Sequence record: PQ850622.1
Direction: 5' to 3' (one strand)
Origin: Escherichia phage OliverMaurmann_Bas86
Length of the DNA stretch: 64,000 bases
Below, one piece after another: positions 1,709-36,227 of this stretch (its first letter is position 1; every line of letters begins with the position of its first letter). Position numbers and translations under genes: made by a program. The notes under the pieces were generated by a model that saw only the letters and a list, made by a program, of their open reading frames with translations, made no database searches and was not told the origin of the DNA.

Positions 1709-1927
1709 ATGAAAATGATGAAACAGGTAACTTATGGTCTAGCTTGCTTAGGGACAGGTTTTGTGATTTCCACAGCAGTACCTGTAAATGCAGTAGGCTC
1801 TCATTCTATTATAGAAGCTCCTGTAGAGAAGCTTAGTTCTCAATGTAAACAAAGGACCATTCAAAATAATTTGGTTGTTATTTGCCCAGACGCTCAATCT
1901 TCAGCTCTGAGAAAAATTCTTCCTTAA
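1709..1927 (+). CDS. small membrane/secreted protein next to lysozyme (holin or spanin candidate)
   Basis: 72 aa, N-terminal hydrophobic segment VTYGLACLGTGFVISTAVPV, RBS AAAGGAGAAG upstream. Confidence 0.35.
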   Translation: MKMMKQVTYGLACLGTGFVISTAVPVNAVGSHSIIEAPVEKLSSQCKQRTIQNNLVVICPDAQSSALRKILP

Positions 1928-20710: not shown

Positions 20711-20935
20711 TTAAACTACACAGAATAAATACATTGCTGTTTCAGGGGAAGGTATGTGGTCACTAGGATATCTAACCCTAATCCACTCATCATCTTCTGC
20801 TACATAATAAGCCCAATAAGACCCATTTTCATTAATAAAGAACTTGAAGGTACAACCAAAGATTTGGTTATTGTGTTCCCATACTGCATGAAACTGAGTA
20901 ACACCTTCTGGTATTGTAAGTTCCGCTCTGATCAT
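20711..20935 (-). CDS. hypothetical protein
   Basis: 74 aa ORF. Confidence 0.3.
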   Translation of the reverse strand: MIRAELTIPEGVTQFHAVWEHNNQIFGCTFKFFINENGSYWAYYVAEDDEWIRVRYPSDHIPSPETAMYLFCVV

Positions 20936-21198
20936 TGTATTCCTCTCTCCTTTAGAGCTTTAAGCAAACCGTTGTGGTTAGCGGCACAGGTTGTATAATT
21001 GTCCTGATACCACTCGAGTGTTGTTGCAAGTGCTACTCCCTGTCCACTCTGAAGTAAAGGGAGGTCTACATCACATTCAGCTTTTAGGTTTGTTGGTAAG
21101 GGCATTAGCTGCCTGCTGTTGTCGCTCGTTGAACAAGCCATCAAACTAGAAGCGAGCAAAATCACCAAACAACTCTTTTGCTTTTTCTTTGTAAGCAT
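20932..21198 (-). CDS. lipoprotein (o-spanin-like candidate)
   Basis: From internal Met: MLTKKKQKSCLVILLASSLMAC with lipobox-like SLMAC, then Pro/Cys-containing mature part. Confidence 0.4.
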   Translation of the reverse strand: MLTKKKQKSCLVILLASSLMACSTSDNSRQLMPLPTNLKAECDVDLPLLQSGQGVALATTLEWYQDNYTTCAANHNGLLKALKERGIQ

Positions 21199-21496
21199 TT
21201 TCTGCACCTTCTTGAGTGCTATGATAACCAAGCCAAATTACTTTGTTTTGATATCCGATACGAGCACTCCATTTATTAATATCTGACCTGTATCCTACAC
21301 CTTTTATTCCAGTTAAAGAGTTCTTTTGAACTATTTTATTGGCATTGTTGAGGACAGGTGTTGCTTTTCTTAGATTGCTCCAAGAGTTATTAGACTTATC
21401 TAAATCTTTATGGTCTATTTGGAAATCGGGAATTTCTCCAGTTTTTATATACCAAGCAACTCGGTGAGCTTTGTATGTCTTTCTCTGAAAATTCAA
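21146..21496 (-). CDS. HNH homing endonuclease with AP2-type DNA-binding domain
   Basis: HRVAWYIKTGEIPDFQIDHKDLDKSNNSWSNLR (HNH) and GYRSDINKWSARIGYQNKVIWLGYHSTQEGAENAY (AP2-like). Confidence 0.6.
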   Translation of the reverse strand: MNFQRKTYKAHRVAWYIKTGEIPDFQIDHKDLDKSNNSWSNLRKATPVLNNANKIVQKNSLTGIKGVGYRSDINKWSARIGYQNKVIWLGYHSTQEGAENAYKEKAKELFGDFARF

Positions 21497-21627
21497 TGTT
21501 ACATAACCAGCTTTTGTTTTACACCCTGCAACCTTTCCTGCGAGTCTTGAGTTCCACTGAGCGCTCTTATCTTTAGAATGTTTCCAGTACAGAAGACCGG
21601 AAGCCTCGTCATAAGACAGATATTTAA

Positions 21628-21969
21628 TTAATTCTTTAATTTCAGTGCCTCCGCTGCTTGTTGTTGTCGTTCATTGAAAAGTCCTACATACTCATCACTA
21701 GCACACACATTGTAAAAAACTGGCTTAGTCTTTTCATAATGCATCTCTTTGTAAATAGTTTCCGTGTTCTTCTTCCAGTTAGATAAACCAGTCAGAACTT
21801 TCTGAGCCACTTCATCAGCAGCCTTAGCTCTCTCAACCTCAATCTCTTGCTGTTTCTTCTCTTGGTCAAGAGCATTACTATCACTTCTGTATTGCTCAAA
21901 CTTGACACCACCAAAGAAAACCAGAGCTGTGAAGATTAAAAAACCTATATTGTTTTGAAGCTTTTCCAT
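21628..21969 (-). CDS. membrane-anchored coiled-coil protein (i-spanin-like candidate)
   Basis: Start taken at ATG 21969 (MEKLQNN); TM IGFLIFTALVFFGGV then Glu/Lys/Gln-rich helix. Confidence 0.4.
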   Translation of the reverse strand: MEKLQNNIGFLIFTALVFFGGVKFEQYRSDSNALDQEKKQQEIEVERAKAADEVAQKVLTGLSNWKKNTETIYKEMHYEKTKPVFYNVCASDEYVGLFNERQQQAAEALKLKN

Positions 21970-21980
21970 TTTAACTCCAA

Positions 21981-22004
21981 CGAAAAAAGCCACCCGAAGG
22001 TGGC
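21981..22004 (-). terminator. rho-independent terminator (reverse strand)
   Basis: On - strand AGCCACC-TTCG-GGTGGCT followed by TTTTTT. Confidence 0.6.
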
Positions 22005-24306: not shown

Positions 24307-24486
24307 TTAACGAGTTGTAGTACGACTCCAACCTTCAACATAGCAATGACCGCCTACAAACTTAGTAGGTGCATTAAATTCTTTTGATATTCGTGTCTCA
24401 CAATCTTCTTTGCTGAAGTCTCCAAAAATATCTATTACCCAAAGAAACAAAGCAAAAGCGACAGCCCAGCATATAAACTTCTTCAT
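24307..24486 (-). CDS. small membrane protein (59 aa, below ORF-track cutoff)
   Basis: Hand-translated MKKFICWAVAFALFLWVIDIFGDFSKEDCETR...; ATG overlaps upstream stop as ATGA. Confidence 0.35.
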   Translation of the reverse strand: MKKFICWAVAFALFLWVIDIFGDFSKEDCETRISKEFNAPTKFVGGHCYVEGWSRTTTR

Positions 24487-30184: not shown

Positions 30185-30505
30185 TCAGATTGATTTGTCC
30201 TTATGTAAACGGTATACTTCAGTAGTCATACAAGCTATACGCTCGTCATGTGGGAGATGCATACCAGTAGAGCCGTTCCATCCTTCGAACTCTGAATCAA
30301 AGAATCCAATAGGCTCGGGATACATCTCTTGCAAGGTGGTTAAGTCATCAGCCACTTGTTGCCACTTATCGTCAGACCAGATTGGGTCATCCAACCAATA
30401 ATACAAATAGGAGTGGATAAGCATCTGTGTTCTGTGTCGTTTAATCACTTCAGCAGGACTGATTTCATTTCCGTTACCAGTCCTAAATGTACTATCGTTG
30501 ATCAT
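30185..30505 (-). CDS. hypothetical protein with NAD-ligase domain-Ia-like motif
   Basis: HSYLYYWLDDPIWSDDKWQQVADDLTTLQEMYPE resembles the N-terminal NMN-binding helix region of NAD-dependent ligases; too short to be a ligase. Confidence 0.3.
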   Translation of the reverse strand: MINDSTFRTGNGNEISPAEVIKRHRTQMLIHSYLYYWLDDPIWSDDKWQQVADDLTTLQEMYPEPIGFFDSEFEGWNGSTGMHLPHDERIACMTTEVYRLHKDKSI

Positions 30506-30691
30506 TTAGATAACCTTGTGCTCGTAGATGCTGGGGTTGAAATAATGCAACCAGTTTATATATTGTTTCTGTTCAAGGTAGTGTCTGCAATCATGACAAA
30601 AAGCATGACCCAAACCTGTTTCCTCGTTCAGCTTGAAGTTGATAAGAAGCTTCTGCTTTTGACAGAAGCTACATGTTTTGTATAAGTCCAC
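30506..30691 (-). CDS. small Cys-rich (zinc-ribbon-like) protein
   Basis: CSFC...CHDC pairs. Confidence 0.3.
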   Translation of the reverse strand: MDLYKTCSFCQKQKLLINFKLNEETGLGHAFCHDCRHYLEQKQYINWLHYFNPSIYEHKVI

Positions 30692-30836
30692 AGTTTTACC
30701 TATTCATCTGAATTGTGACTACAACAATACTCACAAACTCCGCAGCAAGGACAAATCTCTACTGTAGGGTCGTAAGCATCATCAACTGTCATACCGCACC
30801 GTGTACAGAAAACATCATCATCGTTTTCTTCCAAAA

Positions 30837-31484
30837 TTAACTCTCCAAAGTTTTCTTCAAAGCTGCCCATGAGATTGGATAGAGTTTAGCCATCTCTTCA
30901 TCTAATGACTGAGCAAATAGTCGAACTTCATATTGAGCATGGGATGATAGTCGTTGACGACACAATTCAAACCAGCCATACAAGCTACCAGTCCAGTACC
31001 AAGTAGTTACCATACCTTGAGGTAAAACAAATCTAGCTTGTTCAGGAGCTACGAACTTAATCAATTCGTCATAACTAGCAAGAGATGCCTCGTACGCAGA
31101 GTTAAACAAAGCTAAAGCTTTTGCCTCTTCCTCCCCTTCAAGAAGTATTCCAGAACCAGAATGTAGATCATCTGGACGGGAGAAGATTTCTTTAGGTATG
31201 AAAATATCCACTGCTCCATCTTTATATCTACGACTCATCTCGTTCCAAGAAAAACCAACTTGATGCTTCTGTAACTGTCGTGCAATTGCTATAGGAGCTT
31301 CGCATCTGAAGCTCGCTTGTGGGTGACGAAAAGGACTTACGTGTCGTTCCCGAGCTAGAAAATTTATTAGACGAGTGTCACTTTCTTTTAATTCTTCCCT
31401 TTCTACCCCCATAGTTACACGAGCAGCATTGACTACTGTAAGATCTGAACCGAAGTTATCAATTAATGAAGCTTTGATTGTCAT
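30837..31484 (-). CDS. thyX: flavin-dependent thymidylate synthase (ThyX-like)
   Basis: RHPQASFRCEAPIAIARQLQKHQVGFSWNEMSRRY matches the ThyX RHR...S...SxRY signature. Confidence 0.7.
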   Translation of the reverse strand: MTIKASLIDNFGSDLTVVNAARVTMGVEREELKESDTRLINFLARERHVSPFRHPQASFRCEAPIAIARQLQKHQVGFSWNEMSRRYKDGAVDIFIPKEIFSRPDDLHSGSGILLEGEEEAKALALFNSAYEASLASYDELIKFVAPEQARFVLPQGMVTTWYWTGSLYGWFELCRQRLSSHAQYEVRLFAQSLDEEMAKLYPISWAALKKTLES

Positions 31485-31950
31485 TTATGTAAGTCTCCTT
31501 GACTTTATTATATTCCCTAGAGGCTTCTTCTATGGTTGAGAAGAGTCCTATGTGCTTAGATTTAAATACCGCCCGGTAAGCAATAGAGCCACTTTTCCTT
31601 CTATGGACAGTCACTCCAATCACTCCGGTTGATAAATTATTACTCTGAGCTACTTTGTTTAGGCCATTTCCTGATCTAGTAGTCCCCCTAAGATTCTCTC
31701 TTTTGTTGTTTATCCTGTTGCGGTCTATGTGATCTACTTCTTCAGGAAGCAATCCAGTGTCCCACCAGTAAGCAAGTCGATGAGCGTAGTATCTAGCACC
31801 TTTATAAACGATTCTCAAATACCCATTGGTATTTACAGAACCAGCTATAGACCCTTTGTGTCCTTTTCCATAAGTTTTAACCCATCGGAAATCTCCAGTC
31901 AAAGGGTCGTAATCAAGAGCTTCTTTTATTGACGGGTCAATATCATTCAT
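31459..31950 (-). CDS. HNH homing endonuclease with AP2-type domain
   Basis: YAHRLAYWWDTGLLPEEVDHIDRNRINNKRENLR plus VIGVTVHRRKSGSIAYRAVFKSKHIGLFSTIEEASREY. Confidence 0.6.
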   Translation of the reverse strand: MNDIDPSIKEALDYDPLTGDFRWVKTYGKGHKGSIAGSVNTNGYLRIVYKGARYYAHRLAYWWDTGLLPEEVDHIDRNRINNKRENLRGTTRSGNGLNKVAQSNNLSTGVIGVTVHRRKSGSIAYRAVFKSKHIGLFSTIEEASREYNKVKETYINDNQSFIN

Positions 31951-31965
31951 CCGTGAATACCCTTA

Positions 31966-32295
31966 TTATTTATTGCCTAGAGCTGTATCCAAAAATGCTT
32001 TCAGGTTTGCTTCAGTCTGCATACCGGAGAGGCTGTAGTGTGCACCACTGTTACGGTCAGGCACAACGAAAGCAGGGATACTTCGTACACCATACTTAAC
32101 AGCTTGTTCACGACCATCACCTTCAAGGATGTTAATCTCTTCCACTTCTACATCAAACTCCTTAACAACCTTCTCAAAGGTAGGAGCCATTGCTTTACAT
32201 GGAGCACATGAATTACTATAAAATTTAATTACTTTACTCATTCTATTCCTTGTTAATAAACAGATTGATATGGCGCTGAGTAGCAGGGACAACAA
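31966..32295 (-). CDS. thioredoxin-like protein
   Basis: KFYSNSCAPCKAMAP CxxC active site; true start probably the internal MSKVIKF. Confidence 0.6.
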   Translation of the reverse strand: MLSLLLSAISICLLTRNRMSKVIKFYSNSCAPCKAMAPTFEKVVKEFDVEVEEINILEGDGREQAVKYGVRSIPAFVVPDRNSGAHYSLSGMQTEANLKAFLDTALGNK

Positions 32296-32431
32296 TAAAA
32301 GATTTATACTGCCCTTTTGCTAAATCATGAGCAATCTTCTTTGTCTGACCAAGACCCATTACACAGCCACTAACAATAATGGCATGTGCTTGTAATTCTT
32401 CAGGGAGGTTTAATTTCACTCTTTGGATTCC

Positions 32432-32617
32432 TTACAGCATAACAAGAACGATAATAAGAGGTAGTGTTATAGCAAAATGTACCAGAACAACACTACCTAG
32501 CTTGATAGCTTTAACATCCTCTTCTGCTGGGTTTTCTTTAATTGCTAAATTTCGAGCTTTATAGATAATAGTACCAACTATTAACGACCACACGGCCCAC
32601 ACAACCAATGAAATCAT
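32432..32617 (-). CDS. small two-TM membrane protein (paralog 1)
   Basis: MISLVVWAVWSLIVGTIIYK...VVLVHFAITLPLIIVLVML. Confidence 0.4.
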   Translation of the reverse strand: MISLVVWAVWSLIVGTIIYKARNLAIKENPAEEDVKAIKLGSVVLVHFAITLPLIIVLVML

Positions 32618-32626
32618 ATCAAACCC

Positions 32627-32806
32627 TTATGCAGTCAGAAGGTGAAGCAGGAATGGGATAACAACAGCTACGACAACCATGATGGTTGATGCTGTTTGAA
32701 TCTCACCTTTCTTGTCAGGGGTTTCTTCAATAAGCTTACCAGAAGCCCAATAGATACCACCGCCAATAAAGATAGCCCAAATACCCCATACGATTGCTGA
32801 TAACAT
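32627..32806 (-). CDS. small two-TM membrane protein (paralog 2, 59 aa, below ORF-track cutoff)
   Basis: Hand-translated MLSAIVWGIWAIFIGGGIYWASGK...MVVVAVVIPFLLHLLTA, clearly related to 32432..32617. Confidence 0.35.
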   Translation of the reverse strand: MLSAIVWGIWAIFIGGGIYWASGKLIEETPDKKGEIQTASTIMVVVAVVIPFLLHLLTA

Positions 32807-32867
32807 ATATCTATATCCTTATAAATGAGTTCGCCCCACCTCGGGTTAGGAGACAGGGCGGAGGTTT

Positions 32868-33443
32868 TTAGTAAGACACATCACCACTTGAGTGGGACAT
32901 GTTGCTCTTGACGAAGTAACAGAACTTGCCAAGACCTTCATTAATTTCTTGAAGCATACTCTGGTCCACTGGATAGGTGCACAAGTCTGAATCAAACTCA
33001 TCCATCTTCTCAATGATACACATAAGAGTCATGCACATGTCGGAAAGCATACCGTCCATGTCGAGATCAGCGTTACCTTCTCGGAACCAAGCATGGCCTA
33101 AATAATTACTAGCAGTAGCATCCACTTTAACACAATGAAAGCGCATACGCTCTGCTATTCGGTCGCCTGCCTCACGAGCATAATCTTCTAGTTCATCGAA
33201 CATACCATGAACACCTTGGAAACCAGCTCCAGAGACGTTCCAGTGGTAGTTCTTTGCTTTGATGTGTAGAAGTTCAAGGTTAGCTTGCACACCACACAAG
33301 ATGTGTTCTAAGCTGTTACCGCTAATCAGTTTATTCATTCCCTCAAGACGAGAGATAGAAGAGTCAGTAGTAGAGAATGGGTTGCTAGAACCCACTCGTG
33401 TTAGTTCTGGTAAGTCGAAGACATTATTATGCATTAGGTGCAT
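32868..33443 (-). CDS. Dps/ferritin-like protein
   Basis: LELLHIKAKNYHWNVSGAGFQGVHGMFDELEDYAREAGDRIAERMR resembles the Dps ferroxidase-site helices. Confidence 0.45.
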   Translation of the reverse strand: MHLMHNNVFDLPELTRVGSSNPFSTTDSSISRLEGMNKLISGNSLEHILCGVQANLELLHIKAKNYHWNVSGAGFQGVHGMFDELEDYAREAGDRIAERMRFHCVKVDATASNYLGHAWFREGNADLDMDGMLSDMCMTLMCIIEKMDEFDSDLCTYPVDQSMLQEINEGLGKFCYFVKSNMSHSSGDVSY

Positions 33444-33774
33444 CCCCTTCTAAGTTAGTTGAATTAGCTACATTACGAGCAATGTTATCCATGACCTGCT
33501 GGGTAATAACAATGCAATTCTGTGGGTCTACAGACTTAGAACGCCCCATTTCAGGGTCATAAACCTTAACACGCTTGGCTGTTGAGCCAGTAACTTGCAA
33601 CACTTTGAGAAGATAACCTTGGTTTCCAATAGACCATGCAACAACATCACGATTCTTGATATAACGACCAAGCATATCACGATGATAGAACTGCTGCATA
33701 ACTTTAGCTTTGCTAATCTCTTCAGATGGCGGGGCCACTTTACTCAAATCTAACATAACTCTCTCCTGTTTCAT
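33427..33774 (-). CDS. hypothetical protein
   Basis: 115 aa ORF. Confidence 0.3.
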   Translation of the reverse strand: MKQERVMLDLSKVAPPSEEISKAKVMQQFYHRDMLGRYIKNRDVVAWSIGNQGYLLKVLQVTGSTAKRVKVYDPEMGRSKSVDPQNCIVITQQVMDNIARNVANSTNLEGDAPNA

Positions 33775-33826
33775 ACAATATTCTTATACTGTATATACAT
33801 TTGAGAGTTATCATATCTACTACCAA

Positions 33827-34033
33827 CTAGTAGTGGACCTTGCTAGTCAAGGACCCAGCACTGTTATTATCATTTTGAAACCAGCGATGAATCTCCACTT
33901 TTTCAGCGAGTCCTAAAGCTTTTGTAGCTTTCTTAGCAAGACGAGCTTCTTGTCGTGTGTCGAATAATTTAAGACAGTCACCACCGAGATCTTTGTTAGC
34001 CCATTTAACACGAACTGCCCATAATTTAACCAT
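33827..34033 (-). CDS. hypothetical protein (tandem paralog)
   Basis: Shares W.VRV.W....TRQEAR and C-terminal KVHY with 34033..34248. Confidence 0.35.
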   Translation of the reverse strand: MVKLWAVRVKWANKDLGGDCLKLFDTRQEARLAKKATKALGLAEKVEIHRWFQNDNNSAGSLTSKVHY

Positions 34034-34248
34034 TAGTAATGTACCTTTCCGCTGATATAGAAACGACCTGATTTAAAGTCCTGAGCTTTGTGGATAGTGA
34101 TCTTGTCAATAGTACTTTCGCAGCTTAATAAGAACTTCTTATGAGCGCGAGCTTCTTGACGAGTGTTTCTGATACCCATTGACTCTGTACCACTGCTCCA
34201 GTGAACGCGGACTACCCAACGTCTTTTCATTGTTCCAAACTCCATCAA
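34033..34248 (-). CDS. hypothetical protein (tandem paralog)
   Basis: Shares W.VRV.W....TRQEAR and C-terminal KVHY with 33827..34033. Confidence 0.35.
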   Translation of the reverse strand: MMEFGTMKRRWVVRVHWSSGTESMGIRNTRQEARAHKKFLLSCESTIDKITIHKAQDFKSGRFYISGKVHY

Positions 34249-34782
34249 TTATACGCCTTTAGAAGCAACAACCCCATCAGAGTTATTGTAACGACCCTTC
34301 ACTGCATAGGAATCATCACCAGCGTGAGAGTGTTCAAACATAACCATTTGACCAACACGCATCCCAGCACGAACTCGTAAGCTGTGATTGTGGGTAACGT
34401 TATGGAACTCAAAGGTTAGCTTACTGCTGTTAAACCCTGCATCAGCCCACCCAGCATGTAAGTGGTTCAAACCACAACGAGCCATTGAGGAGCGAAGTAC
34501 AAACAGACTTGAGATGTTATCTGGAAGGTTAAACTCTTCCATTGAGTGCGCTAAGAAGAATTGTCCCGGAGTGATGACAATACCATCTTCAGGGATTTTC
34601 ACCTCTTTCCACTTGAGGTTTTCTTTAGCATCAATGTCAACAATGCCGTCAGCCTGTTCTTCAACAAGGATAGTATCACCAATACGGATATCCACACTAG
34701 CAGCGTTAACATATTTATGCTCCGCATCTAAAAAGCCATTATCAATAACACTGTGTAATTCTTGAGAACCTAAAAGACTCAT
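34249..34782 (-). CDS. dCTP deaminase / dUTPase-family enzyme
   Basis: ASVDIRIGDTI, LRSSMARCGL, AGWADAGFN, GMRVGQMVMF. Confidence 0.6.
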   Translation of the reverse strand: MSLLGSQELHSVIDNGFLDAEHKYVNAASVDIRIGDTILVEEQADGIVDIDAKENLKWKEVKIPEDGIVITPGQFFLAHSMEEFNLPDNISSLFVLRSSMARCGLNHLHAGWADAGFNSSKLTFEFHNVTHNHSLRVRAGMRVGQMVMFEHSHAGDDSYAVKGRYNNSDGVVASKGV

Positions 34783-36227
34783 GAGTTTCTGTTTCCTTGT
34801 ACAGATGATGCCAAATTGTTAATCATGTTACGAGCTGTTTCACGAGTCAGCGTAACACCTGCTAAGTTACTATCAAGTTCACCAACTAATTCACGAGCTG
34901 TTGCTCGGAGTTCTGCACCAAGTGTAGTGTTAGAATGAGCCAGACCATTACGACGACCGACAGGTCGAGGAGTATTGTTAGCATCATTAGCTAAAGATGC
35001 AAAACCAATACGAGCAGCTTCACGAGCGGCTATAGCTGCTACCCGATCTTCCGTAGGGGTTGGCAAATCACCAACTTCTACACGTTCTATATCACTAGAA
35101 CGTAGACCCTGAACAACAGAGCTAACTGTTTCCCATGAACGACGGGAGCGCTGCAAATCACCCATAGATGGAGAAGAAGCAGGTCGAACAGTTACTCCAC
35201 CTGTATCATGAGTGACGTGCCATGTACGAGTACCCATTCCAGAAGAACGGGCACTACCAAAACTACCAGTGAAAGTATCACGAGGTGCCTCTGTAGCAGG
35301 TGCTGCGAATCTTGTCTGTTGCCAAGAGTCACGTCTGTCAGTTCCCGGAGTCCAAGGCTGCGTAATTGCTTCAGCACCTATAGTGGTTAATCCGCTAGAC
35401 CATTCTGTCTGTAGATTAACTTCCTCGTCCAGATAACTACGACCCCTTTCCTGAGGAATGTTTAATATAGTTTCCATCATCTTCAGGGTATAATGATGAC
35501 GCTGATTCTGATATAAATTTACACCAGCCATAGGTCCAACTAAATCACTAATCAGGTGAACTTCTGGCTCACCGAAAGCTCCCATTGCAAGGTGCATGTA
35601 TTCAGTAGAACTGCTATAAACTGCAACAGTTGCTTCAGGCCACTTCTTGTGAACATACTTCATTTCACGACTAGATACCACAGGAATGTCACGAGTGTAT
35701 GACATTGCAAACAAACCTTCGTTTGACACATACAGATTACCAAGAGTCATAAACCCTTGACAGATCATAGGAAAGCGACGGCTTAAAGTATCCATATCCA
35801 AAGGTAGATTAATCATCATCTGGATTTTAACTTGATCAATCTCAATTTCCAGAATCTCTTGGAAAGTGAAAAGCGCTTCAGCATAGGTTGTCCCGTTAAC
35901 AGGCTGAATTAGTCGAGATGTAACCTGAAGCCCCTTACTTTCTGTCCAAGATAAGAAGTTGTCAAGGAATAGTGCAGCATTACCTACGTTAGCAGGGCTG
36001 TTTTCTTGACGAGTGTTCCAACGAAGCCCTCCTTGAACTAGGAAGATATCAACATCATTCGGAGTTCTATTTTGAAAGAACGTATCACGGATAGCACCAC
36101 CTGCAATAACAGGATAGATGCCATCAGGGACTACGTTATCTCTGATCAAATTACGAATCAGGTCAAGCCCTACACTGAGGGCTTCTCCTTCTTGAAGGTT
36201 CAATTCAGATAGTGGAATCTTAATCAT
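34779..36227 (-). CDS. Pol-beta-superfamily nucleotidyltransferase (CCA-adding-enzyme-like head domain) with low-complexity C-terminal half
   Basis: PVIAGGAIRDTFF...NDVDIFL resembles the GGxVRD...DxD head motif; C-terminal ~200 aa Ser/Thr/Arg/Gly-rich. Confidence 0.4.
   Translation of the reverse strand: MIKIPLSELNLQEGEALSVGLDLIRNLIRDNVVPDGIYPVIAGGAIRDTFFQNRTPNDVDIFLVQGGLRWNTRQENSPANVGNAALFLDNFLSWTESKGLQVTSRLIQPVNGTTYAEALFTFQEILEIEIDQVKIQMMINLPLDMDTLSRRFPMICQGFMTLGNLYVSNEGLFAMSYTRDIPVVSSREMKYVHKKWPEATVAVYSSSTEYMHLAMGAFGEPEVHLISDLVGPMAGVNLYQNQRHHYTLKMMETILNIPQERGRSYLDEEVNLQTEWSSGLTTIGAEAITQPWTPGTDRRDSWQQTRFAAPATEAPRDTFTGSFGSARSSGMGTRTWHVTHDTGGVTVRPASSPSMGDLQRSRRSWETVSSVVQGLRSSDIERVEVGDLPTPTEDRVAAIAAREAARIGFASLANDANNTPRPVGRRNGLAHSNTTLGAELRATARELVGELDSNLAGVTLTRETARNMINNLASSVQGNRNS

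What the first reader, a model, noticed from the sequence alone, without database searches (positions are those of the whole stretch)
32432..32806. Tandem pair of ~60-aa two-TM membrane proteins, one missed by the ORF track
32432-32617 (61 aa) and the hand-found 32627-32806 (59 aa) are clear paralogs, each with two hydrophobic helices and a short charged loop. This size and topology is typical of class II holin/antiholin pairs or small membrane effectors. They are far from the GH24 lysozyme, so a lysis role is not certain.
Basis: partly seen in the sequence, partly recalled or inferred. Interest (0 to 1): 0.45.

Follow-up and report, generated by a model that had tools for sequence, protein, structure and literature searches.

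The report
Paralogous phage membrane-hairpin genes, not holins
Two small neighbouring genes of a phiEco32-like E. coli phage encode related two-helix membrane proteins of unknown function; they are real, already catalogued as hypothetical proteins, and almost certainly not the phage's lysis genes.

Summary
32432-32617 (61 aa, "A") and 32627-32806 (59 aa, "B") are real minus-strand genes. They are clear paralogues (31% identity, E 3e-10; 0 of 20000 architecture-preserving shuffles reach the score). Both are confidently predicted helical hairpins with two hydrophobic helices.

The window is a Kuravirus-type (phiEco32-like) coliphage. B is the orthologue of phiEco32 gp66 / SU10 CDS66 (PHROG 9296, unknown function). 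It is annotated as hypothetical in about 97 GenBank phages. It was "missed" only because 59 aa is below a 60-aa cut-off.

The holin/antiholin reading is not supported:
- The phage has a holin-endolysin pair at 1709-2452 and spanins near 21 kb.
- A and B lie in a middle-class operon between a Dps-like gene and a thioredoxin gene.
- They have no charged C-terminal tail and no dual start.
- They match no holin family.
- Only 44 of 97 relatives carry the second copy.

The family is confined to this phage lineage. The helical loop is the variable module. In this window, gene B alone has been swapped for the phiEco32-type allele in a Bas87-like genome.

Best guess: a non-lytic inner-membrane binder, possibly for superinfection immunity or modulation of a host membrane protein. 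The function is untested. Interest is low to moderate.

The parts
32627..32806 (-). Gene B, 59 aa. Two-helix membrane hairpin. Orthologue of phiEco32 gp66 / SU10 CDS66, carrying the 'B1' allele (loop EETPDKKGEIQTAS). Present in every relative examined.
   Evidence: ORF. phrog_9296 match, E 4e-34. 97-100% identical over residues 22-59 (the part tblastn aligned) to phiEco32, NJ01 and SU10. AlphaFold hairpin, pLDDT 93.8. 8 synonymous to 1 non-synonymous differences vs phiEco32.
32432..32617 (-). Gene A, 61 aa. Accessory paralogue of B (loop KENPAEEDVKAIKLGS). Present in 44 of about 97 related phage records.
   Evidence: ORF. phrog_9296 match, E 1e-28. Paralogy shown. Distribution. AlphaFold hairpin, pLDDT 91.5. 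dN/dS 0.23-0.48 between A alleles.
32807..32867 (-). Intergenic leader between the Dps-like gene and gene B. It holds the B ribosome-binding site (AAGGA at 32816-32820) and is the 5' boundary of the swapped allele cassette.
   Evidence: Sequence. Identity switches here from Bas87-like to phiEco32-like. The predicted hairpin is not significant (dG -18.9, z -1.74).
32618..32629 (-). B stop codon (TAA, 32627-32629) and the 9-nt spacer, with AAGGG (32624-32628) acting as the RBS of gene A. The close coupling suggests co-translation of the two genes.
   Evidence: Sequence read directly.
33791..33826 (-). Conserved middle-class promoter, reported in SU10 as 'between CDS68 and CDS69'. It includes the AAATGTATA match to the phage sigma-factor motif. 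It is the nearest upstream promoter for the gp68-Dps-B-A-thioredoxin gene string.
   Evidence: The window sequence ttggtagtagatatgataactctcaaatgtatata is identical, up to the last few bases, to the SU10 middle promoter listed in Table S2 of PMC4281155. The motif hit is at 33794-33802, minus strand.

Best explanation
Shown:
- A and B are two co-oriented, tightly coupled paralogous genes.
- They belong to the lineage-specific phiEco32 gp66 family (PHROG 9296).
- Each encodes a protein of about 60 aa that is little more than a helical hairpin: two hydrophobic helices joined by a helical, charged tip of about 20 residues with an invariant E-x-P turn.

Inferred:
- They are transcribed with the middle-class Dps-like / thioredoxin / ThyX genes, well before the late genes.
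- They insert into the inner membrane with both short, uncharged termini at the periplasmic face. The K/R-bearing loop would be in the cytoplasm (positive-inside rule). This is the topology of an ATP-synthase c subunit.
- They are not part of the lysis machinery.
- They act by protein-protein contact in or at the inner membrane. The conserved helix faces (S3, W7, W10, G15, Y19, S42, P53) would serve packing or oligomerisation. The exchangeable loop would be the specificity module.

The role I think most likely is protective or competitive. I put about 0.25 on a T4 Imm-like superinfection immunity that blocks genome entry of competing phages. I put about 0.2 on modulation of a host inner-membrane protein or of a membrane-based defence. 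On this view, the accessory copy A adds a second loop type.
For: - Paralogy, hairpin fold and coding constraint.
- Middle-operon context. SU10 Table S1 lists CDS66 among the middle genes, and the promoter upstream of CDS68 is conserved in the window. The flanking products gp65 and gp67 were detected by mass spectrometry in SU10.
- Complete lysis gene set elsewhere. [quoted passage not shown]
- Lineage restriction. A profile search of 1.84 billion representatives finds only 4 genuine clusters, all of this family. In the phage collection the only matches outside kuravirus-type phages are insignificant (E about 2).
- The loop is the variable module. B1 vs B2 is 20% identical in the loop but 63-75% in the helices. 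The B2 loop resembles the A loop.
- B is present in all of about 97 relatives and A in 44. All four combinations of A presence and B allele occur.
- Isolated swap. The window is Bas87-like in 291 of 320 tiles, yet gene B alone is phiEco32-type. The allele therefore works without co-transferred virion or ejection genes.
- Precedent. T4 Imm is a small inner-membrane protein whose gene lies among the replication and nucleotide-metabolism genes. It binds the pore-forming tape-measure protein.
Against: - No homology to any characterised protein: Pfam, NCBIfam, PADLOC, PDB sequences, Foldseek against PDB and BFVD, and hhalign against T4 Imm.
- The topology is only inferred. No dedicated predictor or experiment was available. 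A cytoplasmic loop is not the obvious place for a determinant that blocks incoming phage.
- Allele diversity is small: three or four types in 15 billion proteins. No comparison gives dN/dS above 1. This is weaker than a typical arms-race signature.
- Universal presence of B would also fit a housekeeping role in the infection cycle.
- The temporal class is by homology to phiEco32 and SU10. It was not measured for this phage.
Confidence: 0.45

Rival explanations
1. Lysis proteins: a class II-like holin/antiholin pair, or lysis-timing regulators that act with the GH24 endolysin.
For: - Size and two hydrophobic helices.
- Lysis genes are already scattered in this phage. The spanins sit in the minus-strand middle cluster near 21 kb, far from the endolysin.
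- The annotated holin (1709-1927) has only one weakly hydrophobic, Gly/Ala/Ser/Thr-rich segment. I found no experimental validation of it.
Against: - A candidate holin with a dual-start-like MKMMK lies 34 nt upstream of the soluble endolysin in the late cluster.
- A and B lie downstream of a middle promoter.
- There is no charged cytoplasmic C-terminal tail and no dual start. The loop is about 20 residues and helical rather than a short turn.
- There is no hit to any holin family in Pfam or PHROGs.
- More than half of the relatives have one copy only, so a holin/antiholin pair is not conserved.
Confidence: 0.1
2. A membrane organiser or tether for phage DNA replication or nucleotide metabolism, functionally like phi29 p16.7 or p1. 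The cytoplasmic loop would recruit a phage enzyme or DNA to the inner membrane.
For: - Fixed synteny between the Dps-like DNA-binding protein and thioredoxin / ThyX / PhoH in all relatives and in metagenomic contigs.
- B is universal in the lineage.
- The loop is predicted to be cytoplasmic (inference).
- The phi29 precedent rests on my own knowledge. It was not checked here.
Against: - The flanking Dps, thioredoxin and ThyX genes are conserved in 7-11-like phages that lack any small membrane gene at this locus.
- The loop was swapped as an isolated cassette without any change in neighbouring or replication genes. That is unexpected for a co-adapted phage-phage interface.
Confidence: 0.1
3. 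Chance ORFs, or decaying remnants with no function.
For: The ORFs are very short, have a hydrophobic low-complexity composition, and have no characterised homologue.
Against: - Full-length conservation in about 97 genomes, with RBSs and the same strand and tight packing as the neighbours.
- Strong excess of synonymous changes within alleles.
- Twelve invariant positions across paralogues that are only 31% identical.
- Confident hairpin models.
Confidence: 0.02

Closest known systems
phiEco32 gp66 (phi32_66) / SU10 CDS66 / PHROG 9296 (hypothetical protein family of Gordonclarkvirinae)
   Same: Gene B is 97-100% identical to these proteins over the aligned residues 22-59 and differs from phiEco32 gp66 at one residue over the full length. 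It occupies the same position between the Dps-like gene and thioredoxin. Gene A is a paralogue in the same PHROG.
   Different: phiEco32 and SU10 carry only one copy. This window carries the extra A copy. It also combines the B1 allele with a Bas87-type backbone. By allele counts, that haplotype is not seen among the 97 GenBank records. No function has been reported for any member.
T4 Imm (superinfection immunity protein)
   Same: Both are small inner-membrane helical proteins of a virulent coliphage. Both are encoded among the replication and nucleotide-metabolism genes rather than with the lysis genes. Imm acts by binding a pore-forming ejection protein in the membrane.
   Different: There is no sequence relationship (hhalign probability 1.4%). 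Imm has 83 aa, a multi-helix core and a charged C-terminal tail. Exclusion activity of A or B is untested.
Class II holins / pinholins (two-TMD holins such as S21 68)
   Same: Comparable size, and two transmembrane helices.
   Different: Described class II holins are N-in/C-in with a short periplasmic turn and a charged cytoplasmic C-terminus. They often have dual starts, late expression and a position next to the endolysin (established knowledge, Young 2002, cited). Here there is no tail, no dual start, a long helical loop, a middle operon, a distance of 30 kb from the endolysin on the other strand, and no family hit.
F-type ATP synthase c subunit (structural analogue only)
   Same: It is the best Foldseek PDB match to the hairpin (TM-score 0.70, 24% identity). 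It has the same predicted N-out/C-out hairpin with a polar loop containing a conserved Pro.
   Different: The match is not significant (E 0.6). hhalign probability against E. coli AtpE (sequence entered from memory, not fetched) is 0.2%. There is no ion-binding carboxylate in helix 2. This is a generic helical-hairpin resemblance.

Membership tests
phiEco32 gp66 family (PHROG 9296) | Full-length match to the family profile | tested here: met
   A: E 1.3e-28, residues 1-61 on profile positions 1-59 of 59. B: E 3.7e-34, residues 1-59 on 1-59 of 59.
phiEco32 gp66 family (PHROG 9296) | Conserved position between the Dps-like DNA-binding gene and the thioredoxin gene of Gordonclarkvirinae phages | tested here: met
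   Same synteny in PAS59, Bas87, E20-1, phiEco32, 4E8, EP335 and metagenomic contigs.
Class II holin / pinholin | Two transmembrane domains in a protein of about 60-95 aa | tested here: met
   Hydropathy and AlphaFold hairpins.
Class II holin / pinholin | Hydrophilic, highly charged cytoplasmic C-terminal tail | tested here: not met
   A ends ...LPLIIVLVML and B ends ...PFLLHLLTA. There is no charged residue after position 39 in A or position 35 in B.
Class II holin / pinholin | Dual-start motif (Met-Lys/Arg-...-Met) giving a holin and an antiholin | tested here: not met
   The N-termini are MISLVVW and MLSAIVW, with no second in-frame start near the N-terminus. The annotated holin at 1709 does start MKMMK.
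Class II holin / pinholin | Late expression, with the gene in a lysis cassette next to the endolysin | tested here: not met
   The genes are 30 kb from the endolysin on the opposite strand. They lie in the middle gene class by homology to SU10 and phiEco32, downstream of a conserved middle promoter. Timing was not measured in this phage.
Class II holin / pinholin | Sequence membership of a curated holin family | tested here: not met
   No Pfam hit at E<=1. The only PHROG hits are families of unknown function. No NCBIfam hit is above noise. In BFVD only the own family is significant.
Class II holin / pinholin | Lethal, timed membrane-hole formation that releases or activates the endolysin | not testable with these tools
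   This needs inducible expression with and without endolysin, or complementation of a holin-defective phage.
T4 Imm-type superinfection immunity proteins | Sequence or profile homology to Imm | tested here: not met
   hhalign of the family profile against genuine T4 Imm (NC_000866) gives probability 1.4%.
T4 Imm-type superinfection immunity proteins | Small inner-membrane protein made before the late phase, encoded away from the lysis genes | tested here: met
   Hairpin with two hydrophobic helices. Middle-operon context by homology. Membrane localisation itself is inferred.
T4 Imm-type superinfection immunity proteins | Blocks genome entry of superinfecting phage by binding its ejection or pore protein | not testable with these tools
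   This needs EOP, adsorption and DNA-entry assays, and interaction tests with kuravirus ejection proteins.
F-ATPase c subunit | Essential carboxylate in helix 2 and profile homology | tested here: not met
   There is no Asp or Glu in helix 2. hhalign probability against E. coli AtpE (sequence entered from memory, not fetched) is 0.2%. Foldseek E is 0.6.

The most novel reading that the evidence does not exclude
The gp66 family could be a previously unrecognised class of superinfection-immunity or competition protein of Gordonclarkvirinae podophages. The helical loop tip would come in two exchangeable specificity types: KENP...K.IK.GS and EETPDKKGEIQTAS. Phages would shuffle these by single-gene cassette replacement and by adding a second copy. 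This window would then carry one of each type, giving a double specificity.
Probability: 0.2. Interest if true: 0.55.

Novelty: new member of a known kind. Interest (0 to 1): 0.25.

Why it matters
Kuravirus-type phages are common and broad in host range. They are resistant to many defence systems and are often proposed for therapy, yet their molecular biology is poorly studied.

One small membrane protein, B, is kept by every member of the lineage and has a swappable loop. That makes it a tractable handle on how these phages deal with the host inner membrane or with competing phages.

In practice, the result prevents a mis-annotation. These genes should not be called holin or antiholin. The phage's holin-endolysin pair and spanins are elsewhere.

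As it stands, this is an ordinary uncharacterised phage ORFan family, not a surprise.

Tried and rejected
- **Homology searches that gave nothing beyond the own family.**
  - Pfam, NCBIfam and PADLOC.
  - PDB sequences with the family profile.
  - Word-indexed protein searches with A and with B.
  - Exhaustive profile search of 1.84 billion representatives. It gave only alleles of the family, one frameshifted copy and one spurious repeat protein.
  - IMG/VR scan: 5 loci, all kuraviruses.
- **Fold searches.** PDB gave only generic hairpins (ATP synthase c subunits, HtrII), none with E<0.001. BFVD gave only the own family as a significant hit.
- **c-subunit mimic idea.** Rejected: hhalign against E. 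coli AtpE (sequence entered from memory, not fetched) gives 0.2%, and there is no helix-2 carboxylate.
- **T4 Imm homology.** Rejected: 1.4%. The genuine sequence was then fetched.
- **RNA element in the region.** No Rfam match in 31-35 kb. The intergenic hairpin upstream of B is not better than shuffles (z -1.74).
- **Consensus promoter and terminator scan.** Nothing above the shuffle expectation.
- **Positional analogue in distant relatives.** No small membrane ORF lies near the Dps gene of Salmonella phage SE131. The second locus, PKM.Lu.22.1, was fetched but not analysed because the script failed.
- **Literature.** No paper in the library mentions a function for phiEco32 gp66 or a kuravirus superinfection-exclusion gene.
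- **Co-variation with ejection proteins.** Not pursued genome-wide because too few full genomes could be fetched. The tile map shows that the B1 allele moved without them.

Full report
**Identity of the window**

Bases 31000-35000 match 98 phage records. All are phiEco32-like E. coli or Shigella podophages (Gordonclarkvirinae: Kuravirus and relatives). The best match is vB_EcoP_PAS59, at 95% over the whole query.

The layout is typical of the group. Late structural genes lie on the plus strand up to about 17.4 kb. Middle and early genes lie on the minus strand from there to about 61 kb.

**Check of the observation**

Both ORFs are present at the stated coordinates on the minus strand. A is 32432-32617 (61 aa). 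B is 32627-32806 (59 aa).

They are paralogues:
- BLASTP gives 31% identity over the full length, E 3e-10.
- Hydrophobic proteins can inflate such scores, so I shuffled B only within its three architectural segments. None of 20000 shuffles reached the observed score (94 vs 32.8 +/- 7.9).
- Both fit phrog_9296 end to end.

Each has two uncharged hydrophobic runs of 19-24 residues. AlphaFold2 predicts a helix-turn-helix hairpin for both, with pLDDT 91.5 and 93.8. The turn falls at the invariant E-x-P motif.

Both genes have Shine-Dalgarno sequences. The A start lies 9 nt after the B stop.

Within allele classes, substitutions are predominantly synonymous: 8:1, 12:2 and 5:0 for B, and dN/dS 0.23-0.48 for A. 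These are therefore real, constrained genes.

The "missed ORF" is a 60-aa threshold effect. The ORF is annotated as a CDS in GenBank relatives.

**What the genes are**

B is the orthologue of phiEco32 gp66 (phi32_66) and SU10 CDS66. It differs from phiEco32 gp66 at one residue over the full length, and tblastn aligned residues 22-59 at 97-100% identity to relatives.

The family is extremely narrow:
- A profile search against 1.84 billion representative proteins returned only four genuine clusters, all alleles of this family.
- There is no Pfam, NCBIfam, PADLOC or PDB relative.
- Fold searches return only generic helical hairpins or the family itself.

No paper in the library assigns these genes a function. 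[quoted passage not shown]

**Context and timing**

The gene order is fixed in all relatives and in metagenomic contigs: gp68 homologue, Dps/ferritin-like protein, B, (A), a 58-aa ORF, thioredoxin, (HNH), ThyX, PhoH.

The SU10 paper assigns CDS25-68, including CDS66, to the middle class by homology to the measured phiEco32 classes. It lists a middle promoter upstream of CDS68. That promoter sequence is conserved almost base for base in the window at 33791-33826, minus strand. It includes a one-mismatch match to the phage-sigma motif TAATGTATA.

The flanking products gp65 and gp67 were detected by mass spectrometry in SU10. Timing in this particular phage is inferred, not measured.

**Why the genes are not lysis genes**

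The phage has a recognisable lysis set elsewhere:
- A 72-aa protein matching the holin PHROG and starting MKMMK lies at 1709-1927.
- It is followed 34 nt later by a soluble GH24 endolysin at 1961-2452.
- An Rz-like i-spanin (21628-21993) and a lipobox-bearing o-spanin candidate (20932-21231) are also present.

A and B lack the features that describe class II holins:
- Both end inside helix 2, with no charged tail.
- They have no dual start.
- The connector is a helical tip of about 20 residues, not a short turn.
- They are in a middle operon.
- They match no holin family.

The "pair" is also not a unit. A is present in 44 of about 97 related records, and 53 have B alone.

One caveat remains. 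I found no experimental validation of the annotated holin, and it has only one weakly hydrophobic segment. I therefore keep about 10% for some lysis-related role.

**Variation**

Three main protein types exist: A, B1 (window, phiEco32, NJ01; EP335 is a 71-75% variant) and B2 (PAS59, Bas87, ECBP2, E20-1).

Twelve positions are invariant across all of them: M1, S3, W7, W10, G15, Y19, E28, P30, I38, S42, P53 and L58.

The loop is the variable module. B1 vs B2 is 20% identical in residues 20-41 but 63-75% in the helices. The B2 loop resembles the A loop (KENP...K.IK.GS), whereas B1 has EETPDKKGEIQTAS.

Counted over GenBank records, the haplotypes are:

| Haplotype | Records |
|---|---|
| A + B1 | 26 |
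| A + B2 | 18 |
| B2 only | about 6 |
| B1 or EP335-type only | about 47 |

**The window is a recombinant at this gene**

Against PAS59 and Bas87, identity is 87-100% through the Dps gene. It falls to 37-77% exactly over the leader and gene B (32870-32650), where identity to phiEco32 rises to 90-100%. It then returns to 80-100% (mostly 93-100%) over A.

Over the whole window, 291 of 320 200-bp tiles are Bas87-like. The only phiEco32-like tiles are gene B, the thioredoxin gene and three patches at 30.4-31.4 kb.

The number of records with a Bas87-type Dps (24) equals the number with B2 (24). The window's combination of Bas87-type Dps with B1 therefore appears unrepresented. I checked this by counts only, not record by record.

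The swap did not bring virion or ejection genes with it. The B allele therefore functions independently of co-adapted structural proteins.

**Mechanism: committed view, with shown and inferred steps kept apart**

*Shown*
- Hairpin architecture.
- Conserved helix faces.
- A variable helical loop.
- Tight coupling of the two genes.
- Lineage restriction.
- Purifying selection.
- Modular exchange.

*Inferred*
- All 3-5 Lys/Arg residues are in the loop and none are at the termini. By the positive-inside rule, this points to an N-out/C-out topology with a cytoplasmic loop, as in ATP-synthase c subunits.
- Almost nothing protrudes except the loop. The proteins therefore most plausibly act by binding a partner in or at the inner membrane, with the loop giving specificity.
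- I rate a protective or competitive role as most likely, at 0.45 in total. About 0.25 of that is T4 Imm-like superinfection immunity, and about 0.2 is modulation of a host membrane protein or defence.

Imm provides the closest functional precedent. It is a small inner-membrane protein whose gene lies among the replication and nucleotide-metabolism genes, and it binds the pore-forming tape-measure protein. There is no homology to it.

Three points count against this view:
- Allele diversity is low.
- No comparison gives dN/dS above 1.
- B is universal, which would also fit a core role such as anchoring replication or nucleotide metabolism at the membrane. However, 7-11-like phages keep the flanking genes without any such membrane gene.

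**Verdict**

The holin/antiholin interpretation is not supported. What is present is a catalogued but uncharacterised, lineage-specific family of hairpin membrane proteins, with a tidy example of single-gene allele replacement.

Interest is low to moderate (0.25). The most novel reading still open is a new, loop-typed superinfection-immunity family, at probability about 0.2.

Noticed in passing
window 20932-21993 (minus strand): The spanin locus is interrupted. The Rz-like i-spanin ORF (21628-21993) and the lipobox-bearing o-spanin candidate (20932-21231) are separated or overlapped by an HNH endonuclease ORF (21146-21496). In Bas87 the annotators joined 'Rz-like spanin' in two pieces across the HNH gene. 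In phiEco32 the two spanin genes overlap with no insert.
   Followed up: partly
window 1709-1927 (plus strand): The annotated holin (phrog_11161) starts MKMMK, which looks like a dual start. It has a single weakly hydrophobic, Gly/Ala/Ser/Thr-rich stretch resembling a SAR or signal-like segment, followed by a 37-aa Cys-containing tail. Its holin status rests on annotation only, and it could be an antiholin-like or class III-like protein.
   Followed up: partly
window 32868-33443 and 31966-32241; L001, L002: Mis-annotations in GenBank relatives. The Dps/ferritin-like DNA-binding protein is labelled 'integrase' in PAS59, E20-1, IME267 and others. The thioredoxin gene is labelled 'holin' in E20-1. 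The 'integrase' label could wrongly flag these virulent phages as temperate.
   Followed up: partly
window 30400-32870: This is the only part of the 64-kb window that is not Bas87-like. It is a mosaic hot spot containing small ORFs, ThyX, an HNH/AP2-type endonuclease (31459-31950), a phiEco32/PAS59-type thioredoxin allele and the swapped gene B. Homing-endonuclease-driven co-conversion may contribute.
   Followed up: partly
window 32243-32419 (minus strand): A 58-aa GTG-start ORF (phrog_19504, unknown function) lies directly after gene A. It is present in PAS59, Bas87, E20-1, EP335 and metagenomic contigs, but absent from phiEco32. It is another accessory gene of this locus.
   Followed up: no
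window 32807-32875 (minus strand): A GC-rich hairpin (CGCCCUGUCUC...GAGGUGGGGCG) lies in the leader before gene B. dG is -18.9 kcal/mol, but z is only -1.74 against shuffles, and no T-run follows it. It is probably not a terminator.
   Followed up: yes
window 24307-24486, 49117-49284, 51428-51694, 51911-52237, 54443-54748 (minus strand): Several other small predicted membrane or lipoprotein ORFs lie in the middle and early regions. One is a second two-TM protein of 88 aa (51428-51694). Another is a lipobox-like 108-aa ORF (51911-52237). None was examined further.
   Followed up: no
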